DNA of 64,000 bases, taken from a virus. Taxonomy: Duplodnaviria; Caudoviricetes. The stretch covers positions 1 through 64,000 of the IMG/VR virus record IMGVR_UViG_3300032330_001040; one strand, given 5' to 3'. Of this stretch, positions 13,463-21,063 are shown piece after piece. Made by a program: the position numbers and the translations under genes. The notes below the pieces were generated by a model. The model did no database searches. It worked only from the letters and a program-made list of their open reading frames with translations, and had not been told where the DNA came from. Every line of letters begins with the position of its first letter. Position 1 is the first letter of the stretch.

Positions 13463-16400
13463 ATGGCATTAAATTTTAACGTTGACCCATACTACGATGA
13501 CTTTGACCCGTCAAAAAACTTTCATCGAATTCTTTTTAAACCTGGATATGCGGTACAAGCTCGTGAATTAACACAAGCACAAACTATTTTACAAAGTCAA
13601 ATTTCCAAATTTGCTGATAACATATTTTCACAGAATACTCCAGTAACAGGTGGTAAAGTTACAACAAATTTAAATTGTTATTATCTAAAATTAAATACAC
13701 AGTATGCTGGCGTTGATATTACAGCCTCAAATTTTCTTAATAAAGTTATTCAAGATTCTACTGGTACAGTATTAGCCAAAGTTATTCAAACTATTGAAAC
13801 AACTACATCAGGCACAGTCACAGGGGATCCACCAACACTTATAATTTCATACTTATCTGGTGTTAAATTTTCTGATGCACAAGTCATTTATTGTGCTGAC
13901 GGTTCAAACTTTAATGCAACAACTTCTGGTATTTCTGGTGGTACAACTTGTACAGGATTATCTTCTGTAGCTTCAATTTCAGATGGTGTTTTTTATATTG
14001 TCAATGGTTATTCACAATCATCTACACCAAACTCTGATGGTAGTTTTACAAAATATTCTATTGGTAATTTTGTTTCGGTTCAACCACAAACTACCATTTT
14101 AAGTAAGTATAGTAATACACCTTCAGCTAGAGTTGGTTTACAAATTACAGAAACAATTTATGATTATATTAATGATGCTTCTTTATTAGACCCAGCGATT
14201 GGTGCTTCAAACTATCAATCTCCGGGTGCCGACCGTTATGTAATTCAATTAGAATTAATTACTTTACCTTTAACATTAGGTAATGATGATGGATTTATTG
14301 AATTACTTAGAGTTGAAAATGGTAATATACTAAAGCAAACTGATGACACAGTATACTCTGTTATTGATGACTATTTTGCTAAACGTGACTATGAAACTAA
14401 CGGTGATTACATTGTTAATGATTTTAAATTAACTCCAAACACAGAGAGTTCTGGTGATTCAACCAAATACAATTTAGGTGTAGGACCTGGTATTGCTTAT
14501 GTTCATGGTTACAGAGTAGAGAATCAATCAAAAGTTTTGTTGACAGGTAATAGAGCGCAAACAACAGAATCAGTAAGTGATAATGGTGTTTATATTGATT
14601 ATGGAAGTTACTTCTATGTTGATAATGCCAATGGAGTATTTGATGTTACAAGCATGCCTAGTGTGGATTTACATTCAGTTCCAGCTTCAAATATTGTTTC
14701 TACAAATACAACTACATACACATCAACATTAGTTGGTACTGGTTATATTAGAAACTTATCATACAGTTCATTTGGAACAAATTCTAATACAAAATCATAC
14801 GTATATAAGGCATATGTTAATGATGTAAAAACAAATACATTAAGTAGTAATGCGACTGGTTCATCAACAACTACTAGTATTGCTTTCTATGATACGACAG
14901 GCAAATTCTCATCTAAAGCCAACGCATACTATGGTGCCACAATATCTATTACTGGTGGTACAAGTGTTGGTGATATTAGAAAAGTTGTTTCATATGATGG
15001 TTCTACAAAAGTTGCTACTGTTGACCAAGCATTTACAATAACACCAGATACAACATCTAATTTTTCTATCGTCTTTAATACTACAGATATTGAATCTATT
15101 GTACAAGTTAATGGTTCATATGGATTAACAGCTAACGTAAATATTAATTCAAATAGTGGTAAAGTTAGTGGTATTAATACTGGTGATACAATCTATCAAA
15201 GTGTTGGCATGCCAGAAATGATATTCAGTCTTGGTTATCCATTTGCAGCCACATTAACTAATACAGATTACTATTCAACAAAAGTATATCGTGGAAAAAC
15301 ATTTACAGGTAATGTGTTAACATTAGATTCTAAATCAGGTAATGCTAGTAGCCCAATTAGATTCCAAGGTTCGGGTACATTAAGTGCTGATGCTGTTAAA
15401 CAAAATTTTATTGTTATTGACAGAGCAACGGGCAGTTTATTAGACTTCTCATCATCAGGCAATACAGTATCCATTTCAGGTAGTAATACTGCAACATTTA
15501 CAGGTAATACAACATCAGGAATATATTCTGGTAAGACTGTTGATATTATTGCTCAAGTTCAAGTATCAAGTGGTGATTCAACTTCATATGTTTTAAAGAG
15601 TAAAAATCTTGTTAAAGGCAATACAACTGCTGCTCTTGCTCAGGTTTCTGGCACAGTAGTTGCCACAAACTCATATGTGTATCCAACAGCAGGCCAAGTT
15701 TACATTCTTAACGCTGGCATTTCTAATCCACCATCTTCAATATCATTATATGTTAGTGATGTTAAGAAGATTAAAAAGATTGTTGATACAAAAGCATCAG
15801 GAACAGTTGTAACAAATGCCATGTTATCAGATTCTACATATGATGTTACAAACTTCTTCTCATTTGATAATGGTCAAAGAGATAATTTTTATGACCATGC
15901 TTCAATTAAGTTATTACCTGGTGCTCCAAAACCACAAGGTAATATTTTAGTTATATTTGATTGTTATGACCATACTGCAGGTAGTAGTGGCGATGGATAC
16001 TTTAGTGTTCGCTCTTATTTGGGTTCCGGTTCTGGTGGTGTTGCCACTTCTCCAGAAAAATATGCAGAGATTGGAAGTTATACAAGTACACATGGTACAA
16101 CATACAGACTTGCTGATTCTGTTGACTTTAGACCAGTCAGAGCAAACTTCTCAACAACACGTACTTGGGAATATACAGCCACACCAACAAATTCAAATGA
16201 TGTGGGTACATTGATACCTTATAACCTTTCAAATTTCCAAGGTGATTATTCTTATTATTTGGGAAGAAAAGATAAATTAATTTTAACTAAGGATAAACAA
16301 TTCTTAATTATAGAAGGTACACCATCTACAAATCCTAGATACCCAACTGAGCCAGATGGCTCTTTGGTTATTGCAAATATATCACTTGACCCATACACAG

Positions 16401-18784
16401 CTTACGTTCCTGGTGAAAACTCACCTACTGAAACATCTAGTTTGTCAATTAACAAAGTATTACACAAACGTTGGGCTAAAAAAGATATTACAGACTTGGA
16501 AGACCGTGTTAATAATTTAGAGTATTATACCTCATTAAATTTATTAGAACAAAATGCACAATCATTACAAGTACCAGATGCAAACGGTTTAAATCGTTTT
16601 AAAAATGGTATTCTTGTTGATGACTTCTCATCTTTCTCTACTGCTGATACAACTAATCCAGATTATAGTTCAAATATTAACATTAGAAAAAATCAATTAT
16701 CACCATTGTCGTTGGTTAATAATTTCCAATTACAAAACCCAGCTGTATTAGCCAGTTTAGGTACTTTATCTAATACAAATACATATGCAGTATCAAGTAT
16801 ATCTGGAACACAAACAAATATATTTACACTACCATACACAACATCTAATGTGATTGTTCAACCTTTGGCAAGTAGTACGATAAGCGTCAATCCATTTAAC
16901 GTAGTTGTTCAAGAAGGTGTTACACAGTTGAATCCTCCAATGGATAATTGGGTTGATAACAATCAAGCGCCTGCAATATTGGTGACCGACCCAGCATTAC
17001 AAGTATATCAGCAGTCAGCTGGTATTAATTATACTAATATGGGTGATTGGCATACAATACCTGGCACAACAACTTCAACTTCAACAACAACAAATTATGA
17101 GAACCATGGAAGATTTAATGGTCCATATGGCGGTAATATTGGTTATAGTCAAACATTAACCAATACTTACGGAAGTCAACTACAAAATATTACATCAAGC
17201 GGTTATACATCTATACCTACAGGTTCAGCAATTAACAATGGATTTTTAACAAACATTTCTATATTGCCTTATATTAGACCTCAACAGATTGTAGTTAAAG
17301 CTAAAGGTTTATTAGTAAATACTCCTATCTCAACATTCTTTGATAGTAAAAATGTTGGTCAATATATGACCGCACCAAACACGATTGAATTAACTAATGT
17401 TAATGCTACAAATGGTGGATTTAAAGAGAATGATATCGTAGGTTTCTATCTTGCTGGTACAGGTAATTTCTATCCTGTTGCTCGTGTTATTTCTGTTTAT
17501 AATTATCCAAACTTTGGCACATCAGGTTCAGCAAATACTTCAAGATTGTATGTCGCTAAAGTTGTTAATACAGCAAACACTTATGGTACAACAACTTTAC
17601 AAAATGCAACCTTTGATTCAAATGGAAATTATTTAAGTTCTGGTAATACAGCACAAGGAACATTAACATCAACCAATATCATTACATTACACCAATCAGG
17701 AACGGTATCTGGTGTTGGTGGTGGTTATGCTAACGTCTTAGGCGGAAGTGCAACGACACAATACTATGTGGCACCAGATGTAGGCAACTATAGTTCATTC
17801 TTAAATCAGTATGGTATTTGGGGTGACCAAACTAATAGTACAACATATAATGCTGCTTTCCCTGTAGTATTTTCAAGCACAGATACTTATACATTAACTA
17901 TCGCTTGTTCAGGTTCAGCAACAGTTTATTCAAATGGAACATCAATTGGTACATCATCTTCTGTATCCCCAACAACGACAACTGTTTCTATTTCAGCAAG
18001 CGCAAATCCAAAAACAATATCTTGGTCTGCATCAAGTAGTGGAACAACAACTTCTGCTTTTGCTTTAACAATTACAAATTCAGCTGGCACGATTGTATTT
18101 GATACTACTAATCCAGTTTACTATTCAACATATAGTGTACCAACAGGTGTATCAACTGAAATTATTATGCCAAAAGGTGGTGCATGGTTTACAGGAGTAA
18201 CTCAAGTTAAATTGGCTTCTGATGCTTCTTCAAATACAAATTTCTATGCTGGTTCAAAAATTAATATCACATCAAAATATGTATATGAAGTAACCGTTGC
18301 TGCTACATATGTACCTCCTCCACCAGCACCTTCAGGTGGTGGCGGTGGTGGTGGTCGTGTAATTTGTACTCATATGACTGAGATTGGTGAAATGTCATTA
18401 GATGACCTTGCTGCTGACTTAGAATTTACAAAACAAATTGATGAGAATACAATCAAAGGTTATCATTCTTGGGCATTTTTCATTGTTGAACATATGAGAA
18501 AACATCCAAAATCATTAGTAACTACAATTGCAAAATACTTGGCACAACATAGAACCAATGAGATTAAATATCAATTAGGACTTACAGATAAACCAGATTA
18601 TATTGGTAAGTATGTAAGATTCTTTGGTGAAACTTATTGTTGGGGTCTAGGTACTCTCATAAATAATTCAAATATGGTTGGTGTAAAAGAAAAAATACAA
18701 AAACAACTTGAACAAGCAGAGAAAACATTAAAAGAACCAAGCATGAATTATATTGCTAAGGTATATGAAAAGGCATTCAAATGA
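13463..18784 (+). CDS. Large virion structural protein (DUF4815/VrlC-like), N-terminal part, with an appended Gly-linker + VICT helical domain
   Basis: NFNVDPYYDDFD..KNFHRILFKPG.AVQARELTQ, PGADRY, LEYYTSLNLLE, RFKNGILVDDF. Confidence 0.85.
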   Translation: MALNFNVDPYYDDFDPSKNFHRILFKPGYAVQARELTQAQTILQSQISKFADNIFSQNTPVTGGKVTTNLNCYYLKLNTQYAGVDITASNFLNKVIQDSTGTVLAKVIQTIETTTSGTVTGDPPTLIISYLSGVKFSDAQVIYCADGSNFNATTSGISGGTTCTGLSSVASISDGVFYIVNGYSQSSTPNSDGSFTKYSIGNFVSVQPQTTILSKYSNTPSARVGLQITETIYDYINDASLLDPAIGASNYQSPGADRYVIQLELITLPLTLGNDDGFIELLRVENGNILKQTDDTVYSVIDDYFAKRDYETNGDYIVNDFKLTPNTESSGDSTKYNLGVGPGIAYVHGYRVENQSKVLLTGNRAQTTESVSDNGVYIDYGSYFYVDNANGVFDVTSMPSVDLHSVPASNIVSTNTTTYTSTLVGTGYIRNLSYSSFGTNSNTKSYVYKAYVNDVKTNTLSSNATGSSTTTSIAFYDTTGKFSSKANAYYGATISITGGTSVGDIRKVVSYDGSTKVATVDQAFTITPDTTSNFSIVFNTTDIESIVQVNGSYGLTANVNINSNSGKVSGINTGDTIYQSVGMPEMIFSLGYPFAATLTNTDYYSTKVYRGKTFTGNVLTLDSKSGNASSPIRFQGSGTLSADAVKQNFIVIDRATGSLLDFSSSGNTVSISGSNTATFTGNTTSGIYSGKTVDIIAQVQVSSGDSTSYVLKSKNLVKGNTTAALAQVSGTVVATNSYVYPTAGQVYILNAGISNPPSSISLYVSDVKKIKKIVDTKASGTVVTNAMLSDSTYDVTNFFSFDNGQRDNFYDHASIKLLPGAPKPQGNILVIFDCYDHTAGSSGDGYFSVRSYLGSGSGGVATSPEKYAEIGSYTSTHGTTYRLADSVDFRPVRANFSTTRTWEYTATPTNSNDVGTLIPYNLSNFQGDYSYYLGRKDKLILTKDKQFLIIEGTPSTNPRYPTEPDGSLVIANISLDPYTAYVPGENSPTETSSLSINKVLHKRWAKKDITDLEDRVNNLEYYTSLNLLEQNAQSLQVPDANGLNRFKNGILVDDFSSFSTADTTNPDYSSNINIRKNQLSPLSLVNNFQLQNPAVLASLGTLSNTNTYAVSSISGTQTNIFTLPYTTSNVIVQPLASSTISVNPFNVVVQEGVTQLNPPMDNWVDNNQAPAILVTDPALQVYQQSAGINYTNMGDWHTIPGTTTSTSTTTNYENHGRFNGPYGGNIGYSQTLTNTYGSQLQNITSSGYTSIPTGSAINNGFLTNISILPYIRPQQIVVKAKGLLVNTPISTFFDSKNVGQYMTAPNTIELTNVNATNGGFKENDIVGFYLAGTGNFYPVARVISVYNYPNFGTSGSANTSRLYVAKVVNTANTYGTTTLQNATFDSNGNYLSSGNTAQGTLTSTNIITLHQSGTVSGVGGGYANVLGGSATTQYYVAPDVGNYSSFLNQYGIWGDQTNSTTYNAAFPVVFSSTDTYTLTIACSGSATVYSNGTSIGTSSSVSPTTTTVSISASANPKTISWSASSSGTTTSAFALTITNSAGTIVFDTTNPVYYSTYSVPTGVSTEIIMPKGGAWFTGVTQVKLASDASSNTNFYAGSKINITSKYVYEVTVAATYVPPPPAPSGGGGGGGRVICTHMTEIGEMSLDDLAADLEFTKQIDENTIKGYHSWAFFIVEHMRKHPKSLVTTIAKYLAQHRTNEIKYQLGLTDKPDYIGKYVRFFGETYCWGLGTLINNSNMVGVKEKIQKQLEQAEKTLKEPSMNYIAKVYEKAFK

Positions 18785-18897
18785 GATATATTAAAATTAT
18801 TCTTTCTTTACCTGCTATTCTTATTGGTGGAATTGGACTAGTAGCTTTATTTTCTGTTCTTGTTCCAAAAACTCTTATCGGCAAAGTGGTAAAATAA
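18781..18897 (+). CDS. 38-aa hydrophobic, probably single-pass membrane peptide (MRYIKIILSLPAILIGGIGLVALFSVLVPKTLIGKVVK); not in the ORF track
   Basis: ATGA overlap with the upstream stop; its TAA abuts the next ATG; fills the intergenic gap exactly. Confidence 0.7.
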   Translation: MRYIKIILSLPAILIGGIGLVALFSVLVPKTLIGKVVK

Positions 18898-21063
18898 ATG
18901 ACAACACAAACATTTTCAAGCATTTACAATTATACCGCAACTATAACAAGTTATGATGCAACTACAAAAATTGCTACATTAGATACTCCTGTAAACATTT
19001 CTTTAGGATATAATGATGATTATGGTGTTGTAGCTTCACAGTATAGTCTTGATGGCCGTTTATCAAATTTAGCAACAGCGATTCAATCAGGCAATACTGC
19101 CACATTATCAACTGATGAAAAAGGTAATTTTGTTGGTATCTTTAATGTTCCTTCTACTACATTTCAAACTGGTACAAGAGTATTTCGTATTGATAATAGA
19201 ACTGTTGCAACTGCTCCTGATTCAGCAACAACATATTCTGAAGCCACATTTACTGCTTCCGGATTACAGACTTCATCACAACAATTAAATTTTTCACCTT
19301 CTGTTGATGCTTCAGCAGGTTCTTTTACACAAGTGAATCAAATAAGTAATCAACTAATTGGAACAATCTCATCAATTTCTCCGTATGATCCTTTAGCCCA
19401 AACATTTATTGTAGAAAAAGATAATTATCCTAACGGTATTTTTATAAAATCTATAAAATTATTTTTCTATTCAAAACCAACACAAGATATTCCTGTTACT
19501 GTATCGATTGTTGGTACATTAAATGGATATCCTAACGGTCAAGTTGTGCCTTACTCAACTAAATTATTACATCCAAATCAAGTATTGACATCAAATAATC
19601 CACATTACTTAGATTCTAGTACATATACAGAATTTATGTTTGATGCACCGGTTTATATACAACCAGGTGAAATGTATGCGTTTATGATTAAATCAACTTC
19701 AGCTGATTATCAATTGTATTATGCGCAACAAAATACTTTGGCTGTTCCTTCAACGGCTAAAGCTTTACCGACAGATGATAAACCATCAAATCCAACTAAA
19801 ATTGGTGCTTTACCACAAGTTGGTTCATTATTTGAATCACAAAATGCCATCACATGGACAGCAGACCAAACTAAAGATTTGATGTTTGTAATAGATAGGT
19901 GTGTATTCAATACAAGTAGTGCAACAATACCATTTGTTGTTCCACAAAATTTACCATTTAGAAAAATGGGTGATGATGATATTTTACATAAATTAAATCC
20001 TGATAGTGTGTCTAATTTATATGGTAACCATTCACAAGATGCTTTAGTTGATGCGTTAAATGTTTCAACTACAGATTTTGTTCCTTCTGGTGCATCTATT
20101 AATTATTCTTATATTACAACTTTAAATTCAGACCACACAAAAACAACAGCGCAATCTATTACTCCAGGAAAATTTGGTACGCCAACTCCAGAGAGTGTTT
20201 ATTTGGATGATGGACTTGGAGAAAGAGCTTTAATACAAACTTCAAATAATTCATTCTCTTTATATGCTACATTAAGTACTACTGATTCTGATGTAAGCCC
20301 CATTATTTCAGATGACGGAGTTTCACTTTACACAGTAAGATATTTAATTAATAATATGGAGTTAAGTAATTCAGTTATTGGTATTACTGCTTCAGGTAAT
20401 GGTTATAATGTTCTTACATCTACTGTTACAGTTAGTGCTCCGGATCTTTCTACTGGCGTACAAGCAACCGCTGGAGTTACAGCGAATGCTAGTGGTTCAA
20501 TTACATCTTGTTATATAATAACTCCTGGTTCTGGTTACATCAAAACACCTACAATTACTATTAGTGACCCAACAACAAGGTCTGGAAAATCAAATGCTTC
20601 TATTGTAGTGTATGGAGAAACTTCACCTAAAGGTGGTAATTCTTGGACTAAATATTTTACTAAGAAAGTTGTACTCACACCAAGTAATGATTCTGGTGAT
20701 TTGAGAGTATTCTATACTGCTTATAGACCAACAGGTACAAACATTTTTGTTTATTACAAAATATTAAATAGAAATGATACACAAAATTTTGAAGATGGTT
20801 CTTGGCAGTTGATGTCAACTTTAAGTAATCCTAATACATTCTCAAACTCAAGAGATAATTTAATTGAATTTGAAGCTGCTCCTGGTGTTTATGGTAGTAC
20901 TCAAGCCAATAATAATATTTCTTATACAAGTACAACTGGCCAAACTTATACAGAATTTAGTCAATTTGCCATTAAGATTGTATTGGCAACCAATGATAAT
21001 ACTGTTGTACCGTATTTAACAAATCTTCGTGCATTGGCACTACCACCAGGAACAGGTATCTAA
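18898..21063 (+). CDS. DUF4815/VrlC-like virion structural protein, C-terminal part
   Basis: DPLAQTF, GIFIKSIKLFF, GSLFESQNAITWTADQTKDLMF, FAIKIVL...LRALAL are the usual C-terminal motifs of this family. Confidence 0.85.
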   Translation: MTTQTFSSIYNYTATITSYDATTKIATLDTPVNISLGYNDDYGVVASQYSLDGRLSNLATAIQSGNTATLSTDEKGNFVGIFNVPSTTFQTGTRVFRIDNRTVATAPDSATTYSEATFTASGLQTSSQQLNFSPSVDASAGSFTQVNQISNQLIGTISSISPYDPLAQTFIVEKDNYPNGIFIKSIKLFFYSKPTQDIPVTVSIVGTLNGYPNGQVVPYSTKLLHPNQVLTSNNPHYLDSSTYTEFMFDAPVYIQPGEMYAFMIKSTSADYQLYYAQQNTLAVPSTAKALPTDDKPSNPTKIGALPQVGSLFESQNAITWTADQTKDLMFVIDRCVFNTSSATIPFVVPQNLPFRKMGDDDILHKLNPDSVSNLYGNHSQDALVDALNVSTTDFVPSGASINYSYITTLNSDHTKTTAQSITPGKFGTPTPESVYLDDGLGERALIQTSNNSFSLYATLSTTDSDVSPIISDDGVSLYTVRYLINNMELSNSVIGITASGNGYNVLTSTVTVSAPDLSTGVQATAGVTANASGSITSCYIITPGSGYIKTPTITISDPTTRSGKSNASIVVYGETSPKGGNSWTKYFTKKVVLTPSNDSGDLRVFYTAYRPTGTNIFVYYKILNRNDTQNFEDGSWQLMSTLSNPNTFSNSRDNLIEFEAAPGVYGSTQANNNISYTSTTGQTYTEFSQFAIKIVLATNDNTVVPYLTNLRALALPPGTGI

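What the first reader, a model, noticed from the sequence alone, without database searches (positions are those of the whole stretch)
18224..18984. DUF4815 protein is split in the middle of a domain by a Gly-linker/VICT domain and a membrane peptide
Seen: an intact internal module reads FSSKANAYYGATISIT-GGTSVGD-IRKVVSYDGSTKVATVD (~14905-15025). A second copy is divided between two genes: ASSNTNFYAGSKINIT near the end of 13463-18784 and TATITSYDATTKIATLD at the start of 18898-21063. In place of the short loop sit YVPPPPAPSGGGGGG, a ~140-aa helical domain (RVICTH...GYHSWA...G.TYCWGLG), a stop codon and a 38-aa hydrophobic ORF, all translationally coupled. Inference: the two chains reconstitute one domain in trans, and the Cys-initiated domain after a poly-Gly linker may be an autoprocessing or sorting module, positioned like Hint or CFI-box-CTERM domains. 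Protein trans-splicing or an RNA-level bypass are less likely alternatives.
Basis: partly seen in the sequence, partly recalled or inferred. Interest (0 to 1): 0.72.

Follow-up and report, generated by a model that had tools for sequence, protein, structure and literature searches.

The report
Split phage baseplate gene with swappable cap
An uncultured marine T4-like phage encodes its giant baseplate protein (VrlC) as two genes cut at the tip of a beta-hairpin, and the first piece ends in one of several interchangeable add-on modules, here an unnamed helical domain that comes with its own tiny membrane peptide.

Summary
Genes 13463-18784 and 18898-21063 are the two parts of one VrlC/DUF4815 baseplate protein. 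About a tenth of close relatives encode it as a single ORF of about 2335 aa. The break maps to the turn of a confidently predicted long beta-hairpin in a small beta domain, so the halves probably re-pair non-covalently. No C-intein, intron or bypass signal was found.

After a conserved Pro/Gly tether, the first piece carries a polymorphic cap. Among 96 relatives there are 20 'RVICT' helical domains (this window), 11 'KIICK' domains, 24 'CCVVAT' domains, 16 true Hint domains starting at Gly|Cys, 15 short Trp-rich tails and 10 unsplit genes. Cap type changed at least 23 times on the backbone tree.

The RVICT domain is all-alpha, not a Hint fold. It belongs to an unnamed family of at least 426 clusters, nearly always C-terminal behind a Gly-rich linker, with no Pfam, NCBIfam, PHROG or PDB match. 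KIICK and probably CCVVAT are relatives that carry a fused transmembrane helix.

The 38-aa membrane ORF is real. A 42%-identical copy follows an RVICT cap at a different VrlC break point elsewhere. Cap function is inferred, most likely membrane association. Earlier notes of this scan report Hint and KIIC caps at VrlC splits in other genomes.

The parts
13463..18784 (+). VrlC/DUF4815 N-fragment gene (1773 aa) including linker and cap
   Evidence: Pfam PF16075 at 187 bits and phrog_358 profile 5-1287. Homologues share this backbone.
14906..15025 (+). Intact internal copy of the small beta module (aa 482-521)
   Evidence: It is conserved in 71 homologues and was used to build the module HMM.
18224..18313 (+). 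N-half of the split module (aa 1588-1617), first strand of the long hairpin
   Evidence: Aligns with the unsplit L117 segment 'YYVGSNINVTSKFVYV'. That segment is strand E117-128 of the AF2 model, with pLDDT above 90. The HMM N-half hit is weak at 3.1 bits.
18314..18355 (+). Pro/Gly tether PPPPAPS-GGGGGGG
   Evidence: Conserved as 'YVPPPPAPSGGGG' in all split relatives, immediately before the point where the sequences diverge.
18356..18781 (+). RVICT ('VICT') cap domain: core aa 1632-1737 plus two extra helices
   Evidence: 426 representative clusters at E<=1e-3, with matches starting at residue 1. C4, G35, Y36, W39, G84, E92 and G99 are invariant. AF2 predicts an all-alpha fold. No Pfam, PHROG, NCBIfam or PDB match.
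18781..18897 (+). 38-aa single-pass membrane peptide gene, coupled through an ATGA overlap
   Evidence: Kyte-Doolittle 2.55 over 19 aa. The product is unchanged in L003 (4 base differences, all synonymous) and differs at one residue in L002. A 42%-identical, gap-free homologue follows the RVICT cap of L198 with the same ATGA overlap.
18898..21063 (+). VrlC C-fragment gene (721 aa). Its first ~45 aa (18898-19032) are the C-half of the split module.
   Evidence: phrog_358 profile 1272-1597. Aligns to Bellamy gp113 residues 1534-1884. HMM C-half hit at residues 14-35. Aligns with strands E131-163 of the unsplit model.

Best explanation
This is a gene fission of the baseplate protein VrlC, with a swappable C-terminal cap on the first piece.

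Shown: the ancestral single gene is cut at or near the turn of a long two-stranded beta-hairpin inside a small beta domain. Each piece keeps one strand.

Inferred: the two proteins re-form the domain non-covalently by strand pairing when the baseplate assembles.

Shown: the new C-terminus of the first piece is extended by a flexible Pro/Gly tether. The tether carries one of several interchangeable caps, which are exchanged between lineages at the poly-Gly. In this phage the cap is an all-alpha RVICT domain made together with a translationally coupled 38-aa transmembrane peptide, and the two travel as a two-gene cassette.

Inferred, moderate confidence: the caps are membrane-directed accessory modules. 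Sister cap types are homologous domains with a fused TM helix, Trp-rich tails, or Hint domains followed by a hydrophobic helical tail. They could hold the first fragment at the cell membrane during assembly or contact the host envelope at infection. They are not needed to rejoin the halves. Hint-type caps in relatives very probably cut themselves off at Gly|Cys. Whether the RVICT cap is removed is unknown.
For: Split versus unsplit:
- Colinear PHROG coverage of the two ORFs.
- Single-ORF homologues in cyanophage Bellamy, phiM9 and AG-345-E15.
- Ten close unsplit relatives of 2331-2360 aa, against an expected 1612+721 aa, and unsplit IMG/VR loci such as L117-L129.

Break point:
- Alignment A4 and the AF2 model of unsplit L117. 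Strands 117-128 and 131-146 form a hairpin with pLDDT 92-96.
- VIA matches to single beta domains of phage tail proteins span both halves, with Z up to 6.0.

Caps:
- Sequences diverge exactly after 'YVPPPPAPSGGGG' into five cap types.
- At least 23 state changes on a tree built from residues 700-1500. Strongly supported sister pairs carry different caps, for example P0177 (RVICT) with P0180 (Hint), and P0183 (Hint) with P0184 (KIICK).
- hhalign gives RVICT vs KIICK 98.8% probability (E 6e-17) and RVICT vs CCVVAT 88.7%.
- KIICK and CCVVAT caps contain a TM-like segment.
- Hint caps are confirmed by Pfam.

Cassette:
- The RVICT cap plus TM ORF recurs at a different VrlC break point in L198, profile position ~1130 rather than ~1280.

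No splicing machinery:
- C-fragments start within 0-113 nt of the stop and have no C-intein.
- No Rfam intron.
Against: - No experiment or co-fold shows that the two chains associate. The AF2 model is of an unsplit relative, and contacts could not be inspected.
- The N-half HMM hit is weak (3.1 bits).
- The RVICT domain itself has no hydrophobic stretch (best Kyte-Doolittle window 0.57).
- The membrane role rests on neighbours and relatives. Most RVICT-family members elsewhere lack a downstream TM ORF.
- Two conserved cysteines and conserved Arg, Glu, Tyr and Trp residues could mean a binding or catalytic function that I cannot name.
- The cap tree could be distorted by recombination within the backbone.
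Confidence: 0.6

Rival explanations
1. The cap cassette is a selfish or hitch-hiking mobile insert, derived from or travelling with intein-like elements. It lands in permissive loops of VrlC and leaves a tolerated 'gene in pieces'. It does nothing useful for the phage.
For: - Hint domains occupy the same site in relatives.
- Caps swap often.
- The RVICT+TM cassette sits at two different VrlC break points.
- Unsplit forms are nested among split ones. P0181 keeps a remnant 'PSGGAGGS' linker, as if a cap had been deleted.
- Hint-polyGly-RVICT occurs in single proteins.
Against: - No homing endonuclease or other mobility domain lies in or next to the cap.
- The RVICT family is strongly conserved, with 7 invariant and 8 near-invariant positions in 47 diverse sequences.
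- About 90% of this clade keeps some cap, or at least a Trp tail, which suggests selection.
Confidence: 0.2
2. The caps are polymorphic effector or toxin-like cargo displayed on the baseplate, analogous to C-terminal toxin domains of Rhs, evolved VgrG and PAAR proteins. They would be delivered to, or inserted into, the host envelope at adsorption. The small TM ORF would act as a chaperone or immunity-like partner.
For: - The layout is a conserved trunk, a demarcating linker and then a variable C-terminal domain.
- A Hint domain lies directly upstream of RVICT in P0117, P0127 and P0137, as in pretoxin-HINT architectures.
- A small ORF is tightly coupled downstream.
- The top structural rows are IpaH/SspH1-type NEL domains, which also use a catalytic Cys, but only at Z 4.1-4.7.
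Against: - Z below 5 for a helical bundle is within noise.
- No toxin family hit.
- A sixth of relatives carry only 10-20-residue Trp-rich tails, which cannot be enzymes.
- In the other cap types no separate downstream ORF exists.
Confidence: 0.12
3. The two pieces are covalently rejoined, either by protein trans-splicing or thioester ligation, or at the RNA level by an intron or translational bypass.
For: Hint domains with Cys1, block B 'TINHP' and block F motifs occur at this site in relatives and could form a Gly thioester.
Against: - In this window the cap is all-alpha and gives no Hint hit.
- The C-fragment starts MTTQTF with no C-intein, and no relative has one.
- Most Hint caps lack the terminal His-Asn.
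- There is no Rfam intron.
- The intervening ORF is a conserved gene.
- All three ORFs have their own starts.
Confidence: 0.04
4. The split is a sequencing or assembly artefact, or a recent pseudogene.
For: None beyond the a priori possibility in a metagenomic contig.
Against: The same three-ORF layout appears in independent contigs at 93-99% identity, with the TM-ORF product unchanged in one and differing at one residue in the other. It also appears in 19 protein clusters of 1767-1773 aa. Split forms dominate the clade.
Confidence: 0.01

Closest known systems
VrlC / DUF4815 baseplate proteins of T4-like cyano-, pelagi- and rhizophages and SPO1/A511-type phages
   Same: The two genes together are a VrlC. 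VrlC is reported as a baseplate component linked to double-layered baseplates, and as replacing gp7 in pelagimyophages (PMC4621102, PMC7029224). Here it lies between the gp8-like wedge gene and the tail fibres.
   Different: Described VrlC genes are treated as single ORFs. This one is split inside a domain and carries a cap and a membrane-peptide gene at the break.
'Genes in pieces' and 'fractured genes' in phages (split genes with inserted elements; Dassa et al. 2009, PMC2677866; T4-type mobile elements, PMC2988022)
   Same: A gene that is contiguous in relatives is divided by inserted coding DNA, and the pieces are expected to reassemble.
   Different: There is no homing endonuclease and no split intein halves. 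The inserted DNA encodes a tethered C-terminal domain and a TM peptide. The target is a structural protein rather than a replication enzyme.
Hedgehog-type / bacterial intein-like (BIL) Hint autoprocessing domains
   Same: In sister lineages a Hint domain with Cys1 directly after poly-Gly, block B and block F sits at the same position, followed by an ~85-aa helical tail. This matches the Hint-plus-adduct-region layout.
   Different: The window's cap is not a Hint domain. The resemblance is positional only.
Polymorphic toxin / evolved VgrG-PAAR-Rhs C-terminal domain swapping (Zhang et al. 2012, PMC3482391)
   Same: A conserved trunk, a linker that marks the recombination point, many unrelated C-terminal modules, and Hint domains next to the variable module.
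   Different: No recognisable toxin or immunity family. Several 'caps' are only Trp-rich tails. The carrier is a phage baseplate protein fragment.
Puniceispirillum phage HMO-2011 gp49 (hypothetical protein)
   Same: It is the only one of 50,697 GenBank phage records with an RVICT domain, again at the extreme C-terminus.
   Different: It is a podovirus protein between the portal and coat genes, with an unrelated N-terminal part. It has no poly-Gly run and no downstream TM ORF.

Membership tests
VrlC / DUF4815 (PF16075, phrog_358) | Significant match to the family model | tested here: met
   PF16075 at 187.2 bits against a cut-off of 30. phrog_358 E 5.8e-223 for P0001 and 5.5e-93 for P0003.
VrlC / DUF4815 (PF16075, phrog_358) | The two ORFs cover the family profile colinearly, as one protein does in relatives | tested here: met
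   Profile 5-1287, then 1272-1597. Single ORFs in Bellamy, phiM9, AG-345-E15, P0181 and L117.
Hint / intein superfamily (for the RVICT cap) | Beta-rich Hint fold and a match to Hint models | tested here: not met
   AF2 gives seven helices and no strands. No Hint family appears even at E<=10.
Hint / intein superfamily (for the RVICT cap) | Nucleophile (Cys/Ser) as first residue of the domain, plus block B TxxH | tested here: not met
   The domain starts R-V-I-C, so Cys is residue 4. The only partly conserved His (GYH) is not invariant.
Naturally split intein (trans-splicing) | C-intein of ~35 aa ending in Asn at the start of the downstream protein, followed by Cys/Ser/Thr | tested here: not met
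   P0003 starts MTTQTF and aligns from residue 1-3 with the unsplit sequence.
C-terminal sorting signals (GlyGly-CTERM, CFI-box-CTERM, PEP-CTERM) | Short motif plus TM helix plus basic tail at the very C-terminus, matched by NCBIfam models | tested here: not met
   No NCBIfam hit at E<=0.1 for the cap or the peptide. The C-terminus of P0001 is hydrophilic.
Polymorphic toxin systems | Conserved trunk with recombining, unrelated C-terminal modules | tested here: met
   Five cap types after one linker, with at least 23 changes on the tree.
Polymorphic toxin systems | Recognisable toxin domain and cognate immunity gene | tested here: inconclusive
   No toxin family hit. The downstream TM ORF is conserved with the RVICT cap, but its role is unknown.
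Fractured genes / HEG-split genes | Free-standing homing endonuclease at the break | tested here: not met
   Between the pieces lie only the cap and a 38-aa TM ORF. No endonuclease family was found.
IpaH-type NEL domain | Structural match clearly above background | tested here: inconclusive
   Best Z 4.7, rmsd 2.8 over 68 residues. This is within the noise expected for helical bundles.

The most novel reading that the evidence does not exclude
The RVICT/KIICK/CCVVAT domains, Trp tails and Hint modules together form a polymorphic 'cap' system on the baseplate of abundant ocean myophages. It would be a phage counterpart of evolved VgrG/Rhs tips. Tethered, membrane-active modules, here a helical domain loaded with its own TM peptide, would be displayed at the tip of a hairpin and released or inserted into the host envelope on adsorption. 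Hint caps would provide self-release or thioester chemistry.
Probability: 0.15. Interest if true: 0.85.

Novelty: new variant of a known kind. Interest (0 to 1): 0.66.

Why it matters
VrlC is a core baseplate gene of pelagimyophages and cyanomyophages, among the most abundant viruses in the sea. It is used as a phylogenetic marker (PMC7029224).

- In one large clade, about 90% of the genes are split at one hairpin and carry recombining caps. This affects gene calling and core-gene phylogenies.
- It offers a natural example of a structural domain assembled from two chains.
- It defines a large, unnamed C-terminal domain family (at least 426 clusters at 50% identity) with a strict 'Gly-rich linker then RVIC(T/N)' start and no known fold or function.
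- It places bona fide Hint autoprocessing domains and unrelated helical domains at an identical position, giving a tractable system to ask what these end modules do on virions.

Tried and rejected
- Pfam, PHROG and NCBIfam scans of the cap and the peptide gave nothing meaningful.
- The PDB profile search found no hit. Foldseek against PDB found nothing at E<=0.001.
- VIA-wide gave a best Z of 4.7 (IpaH NEL), which I treat as noise.
- BFVD returned only uncharacterised phage proteins of the same family. The ESM Atlas returned only unnamed viral clusters.
- Rfam on 17800-19400 found no intron or other RNA.
- The trans-splicing, bypass, artefact and pseudogene readings were rejected, as set out under the rival explanations.
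- A regex harvest of module copies failed and was replaced by phmmer/HMM.
- A degenerate DNA pattern for RVICT..GYHxWA found only 4 loci, so the general genomic context of the family stays thinly sampled.
- A possible -1 slippery heptamer (T_TTA_AAA) precedes the stop in L198, read. It is absent in the window (A_TTC_AAA), so frameshift fusion of cap and peptide is not proposed.
The C4-C95 distance and the contacts between the two hairpin strands could not be measured.
Full report
**What is in the sequence**

ORF 13463-18784 (1773 aa), ORF 18781-18897 (38 aa) and ORF 18898-21063 (721 aa) lie head to tail on the + strand.
- The first stop overlaps the next start (ATGA at 18781-18784).
- The second stop, TAA, directly abuts the third ATG.
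The internal module is aa 482-521 (14906-15025). 'ASSNTNFYAGSKINIT' is aa 1588-1603 (18224-18271). PPPPAPS-G7 is 18314-18355. A 142-aa domain beginning RVICTH is 18356-18781.
- The third protein starts MTTQTF..YTATITSYDATTKIATLD.
- The 38-aa product has a 19-residue window with Kyte-Doolittle 2.55, so it is a single-pass membrane peptide.

**Context**

The window is part of a 114-kb IMG/VR virus record, estimated 69% complete.
- Neighbouring genes are gp6-like and gp8-like baseplate wedge proteins upstream. Tail fibre, sheath, neck and scaffold genes lie downstream.
- The large ORF is a DUF4815 protein (PF16075, 187 bits) and belongs to phrog_358.
- Its relatives in GenBank phages are annotated VrlC or 'structural protein'.
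- VrlC has been localised to the baseplate of phage A511 and linked to double-ringed baseplates (PMC4621102).
- In pelagimyophages and cyanomyophages it is described as replacing T4 gp7, and it borders the hypervariable host-recognition cluster (PMC7029224).

**The gene really is split**

- P0001 covers phrog_358 profile positions 5-1287. P0003 continues at 1272-1597.
- Cyanophage Bellamy gp113 (2522 aa), phiM9 VrlC (1737 aa) and Marine virus AG-345-E15 carry both parts in one ORF.
- I searched with P0001 residues 1363-1631, the part just before the break. This returned 96 DUF4815 clusters.
- Ten of them are unsplit: nine of 2331-2360 aa plus a partial one of 1969 aa. The expected length is 1612+721=2333.
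- IMG/VR loci confirm single ORFs through the junction: L117, L118, L120, L122, L123, L125, L129, L162, L165 and L166.
- In the shortest form (L117) the junction is a contiguous 'YYVGSNINVTSKFVYV-LNNIYYNKTQTFNATITAYSNITKLVTLD'.
- In alignment A4 the window-type N-fragment ends on the first part and the C-fragment begins on the second.
- AlphaFold2 on the unsplit L117 segment predicts residues 82-180 with pLDDT 85-96. Strands 117-128 and 131-146 form one long hairpin around a two-residue turn. The break maps at or next to that turn.
- VIA alignments of this model to single beta domains of phage tail proteins span both halves. Examples are the K1 lyase insertion domain (Z 6.0), phage Chi tail tip (Z 5.8), lambda J and T5 pb9. 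These Z values are modest.
The C-half gives 14.1 bits on P0003 residues 14-35. The N-half gives only 3.1 bits on P0001 residues 1588-1608. Unsplit relatives show both halves colinear with a variable 20-80-aa loop between them.

Shown: one domain is divided between two genes. Inferred: the two strands pair in trans.

**The cap is polymorphic**

All split relatives share '...ITSKYVY..ATYVPPPPAPSGGGG' and then diverge abruptly. Among the 96 clusters (with P0180 reassigned by eye):

| Cap type | Clusters | Notes |
|---|---|---|
| RVICT domain (this window) | 20 | all-alpha |
| 'KIICK..GY(I/L)RWA' domain | 11 | ends in a TM-like segment |
| 'CCVVATALT..HRGYH' domain | 24 | contains a TM-like segment |
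| Hint domain | 16 | Cys lies directly after the Gly run; ~85-aa helical, hydrophobic-ended tail |
| Trp-rich tail | 15 | 10-25 residues, e.g. GNWFQQHGWW |
| Unsplit | 10 | about 2335 aa |

- The Hint caps are supported by Pfam. L139 gives Hom_end_hint at 33.3 bits, above its cut-off. L158 has four tandem Hint units (E 1e-42). The others are sub-threshold.
- The Hint caps have Cys1, block B 'TINHP' and block F 'VYNLW.DGDGTY.VNG'. Most lack a terminal His-Asn.
- Profile-profile comparison makes KIICK caps clear homologues of RVICT (98.8%, E 6e-17). CCVVAT caps are probable distant ones (88.7%, E 2.5e-6).
- On a FastTree of residues 700-1500, which are away from the cap, cap state changes at least 23 times. 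The minimum possible is 5, and the mean after shuffling the cap labels is 59.
- Strongly supported sister pairs carry different caps: P0177 with P0180, P0183 with P0184, P0222 with P0225, and P0241 with P0243/P0246.
- Unsplit forms are nested inside split clades.
- P0181, nested in the RVICT clade, is unsplit but keeps a 'PSGGAGGS' remnant, as expected if a cap had been deleted.

So the caps are exchanged by recombination at the linker. Fission and fusion have each happened more than once, or the 3' part recombines.

**The RVICT domain**

- An exhaustive phmmer search found 426 representative clusters at E<=1e-3. In nearly all, the match begins at query residue 1 and ends near the C-terminus, in proteins of 110-1450 aa.
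- In 148 of the 150 listed hits, 'RVIC(T/N)' or a close variant is visible about 110-170 residues from the end. It almost always follows Gly/Ser-rich or glycine-zipper-like sequence.
- Invariant positions in 47 diverse members are C4, G35, Y36, W39, G84, E92 and G99. R1, V2, G11, D21, V44, R66, R88 and C95 are at least 90% conserved.
- N-terminal partners are varied. They include FN3/Ig-like repeat proteins with signal-like N-termini, glycine-zipper proteins, and three proteins with a Hint domain followed by poly-Gly and RVICT.
- AF2 gives a confident helical bundle: pLDDT 86.6 overall and above 90 for residues 1-100.
- No family or fold match was obtained. See 'tried and rejected' for the individual searches.
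- Among 50,697 GenBank phage records only Puniceispirillum phage HMO-2011 gp49 has the domain, again at its C-terminus.

The domain is therefore not a Hint domain and is not 'Cys-initiated'. It is an unnamed family.

**The membrane peptide is a real, co-inherited gene**

- In close relatives the product is unchanged in L003 (4 base differences, all synonymous) and differs at one residue in L002.
- Decisive is a metagenomic contig, L198. A different, shorter VrlC lineage is cut at another place there, phrog_358 position ~1130 instead of ~1280.
- Its N-fragment ends in a Gly-rich linker plus an RVICT domain. The same ATGA overlap follows, then a 39-aa ORF that is 42% identical and 68% similar to the window's peptide, without gaps. 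Two further ORFs then carry the rest of VrlC.
- The other cap types have no ORF in the 0-83-nt gap before the C-fragment. Their TM segment is inside the cap.
- The simplest reading is that 'helical domain plus TM helix' is the functional unit. It is fused in KIICK and CCVVAT caps and split into two translationally coupled products in the RVICT cassette.

**Mechanism, with status**

Shown:
- fission of a domain at a hairpin;
- a conserved tether;
- recombining caps;
- homology of three cap types;
- a two-gene RVICT+TM cassette at two break points;
- absence of splicing elements.

Inferred:
- non-covalent strand complementation;
- Hint caps cutting at Gly|Cys, based on the motifs;
- a membrane-directed role of the caps, either assembly at the membrane or envelope contact at infection.

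Unknown:
- whether the RVICT cap stays on the virion;
- what its conserved Cys pair and polar residues do.

**Rivals**

- A purely selfish insert fits the mobility. It does not fit the strong conservation or the lack of any endonuclease.
- An effector or toxin-like cargo fits the polymorphic-toxin-like layout and the Hint adjacency. It lacks any toxin signature, and Trp tails cannot be enzymes.
- Covalent rejoining is contradicted by the lack of a C-intein, by the all-alpha cap, and by there being no intron.
- An artefact is excluded by many independent contigs.

**Relation to earlier notes of this scan**

Other windows from other genomes were reported with Hint domains at VrlC split points, and with a 'poly-Gly-KIIC hydrophobic domain' or a 'KIVCT domain' at the break. 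My results agree and connect them: all are alternative caps at VrlC breaks, and the KIIC type is homologous to the RVICT domain studied here.

**Verdict**

The arrangement combines known principles (gene fission, C-terminal module swapping, Hint autoprocessing) in a way I could not find described. A search for DUF4815 found three papers, and I opened none of them; two are on unrelated subjects by title and the third is the PHROG database paper. The VrlC papers I read treat the gene as a single ORF. The arrangement also involves an unnamed, widespread domain family.

Noticed in passing
L198:1-2133 (JGI contig JACCDP011017937.1): A different VrlC lineage is cut into at least three pieces. The RVICT cap plus a 39-aa TM ORF sits at another break point (phrog_358 position ~1130). 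A 141-aa ORF follows, then a C-fragment starting near 'DLAQTF'. A T_TTA_AAA heptamer precedes the cap's stop, so a -1 shift would fuse cap and peptide. The window has no such heptamer.
   Followed up: partly
L158:6615-9188: One relative's cap is 858 aa long and holds four tandem Hint units, some ending in the classical ..IVHN. This is far larger than the usual ~220-aa Hint cap.
   Followed up: partly
P0181 (2360 aa) junction near residue 1620: An unsplit VrlC nested inside the RVICT-capped clade keeps a 'PSGGAGGS' linker remnant between the two hairpin strands. This suggests re-fusion after loss of a cap rather than an ancestral unsplit state.
   Followed up: partly
P0117, P0127, P0137 (metagenomic proteins): Single proteins have the order Hint domain (ending ..IVHNK), then poly-Gly, then RVICT domain. 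The two kinds of module that alternate at the VrlC break can therefore also occur in tandem.
   Followed up: partly
L001:4066-6354 (Puniceispirillum phage HMO-2011 gp49): This is the only cultured-phage protein with an RVICT domain. It is 762 aa, lies between the portal and coat genes of a podovirus, and is annotated hypothetical.
   Followed up: partly
window 18335-18355: The Gly7 run is encoded by near-perfect GGT repeats (ggtggtggcggtggtggtggt). Such a tract could serve as the recombination site for cap exchange.
   Followed up: no
L118/L119/L124 unsplit VrlC, about 170 aa after the junction: A run of 12-13 prolines precedes the conserved 'DPLAQTF' segment in some unsplit relatives. That is the position where the L198 lineage has its second break.
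   Followed up: no
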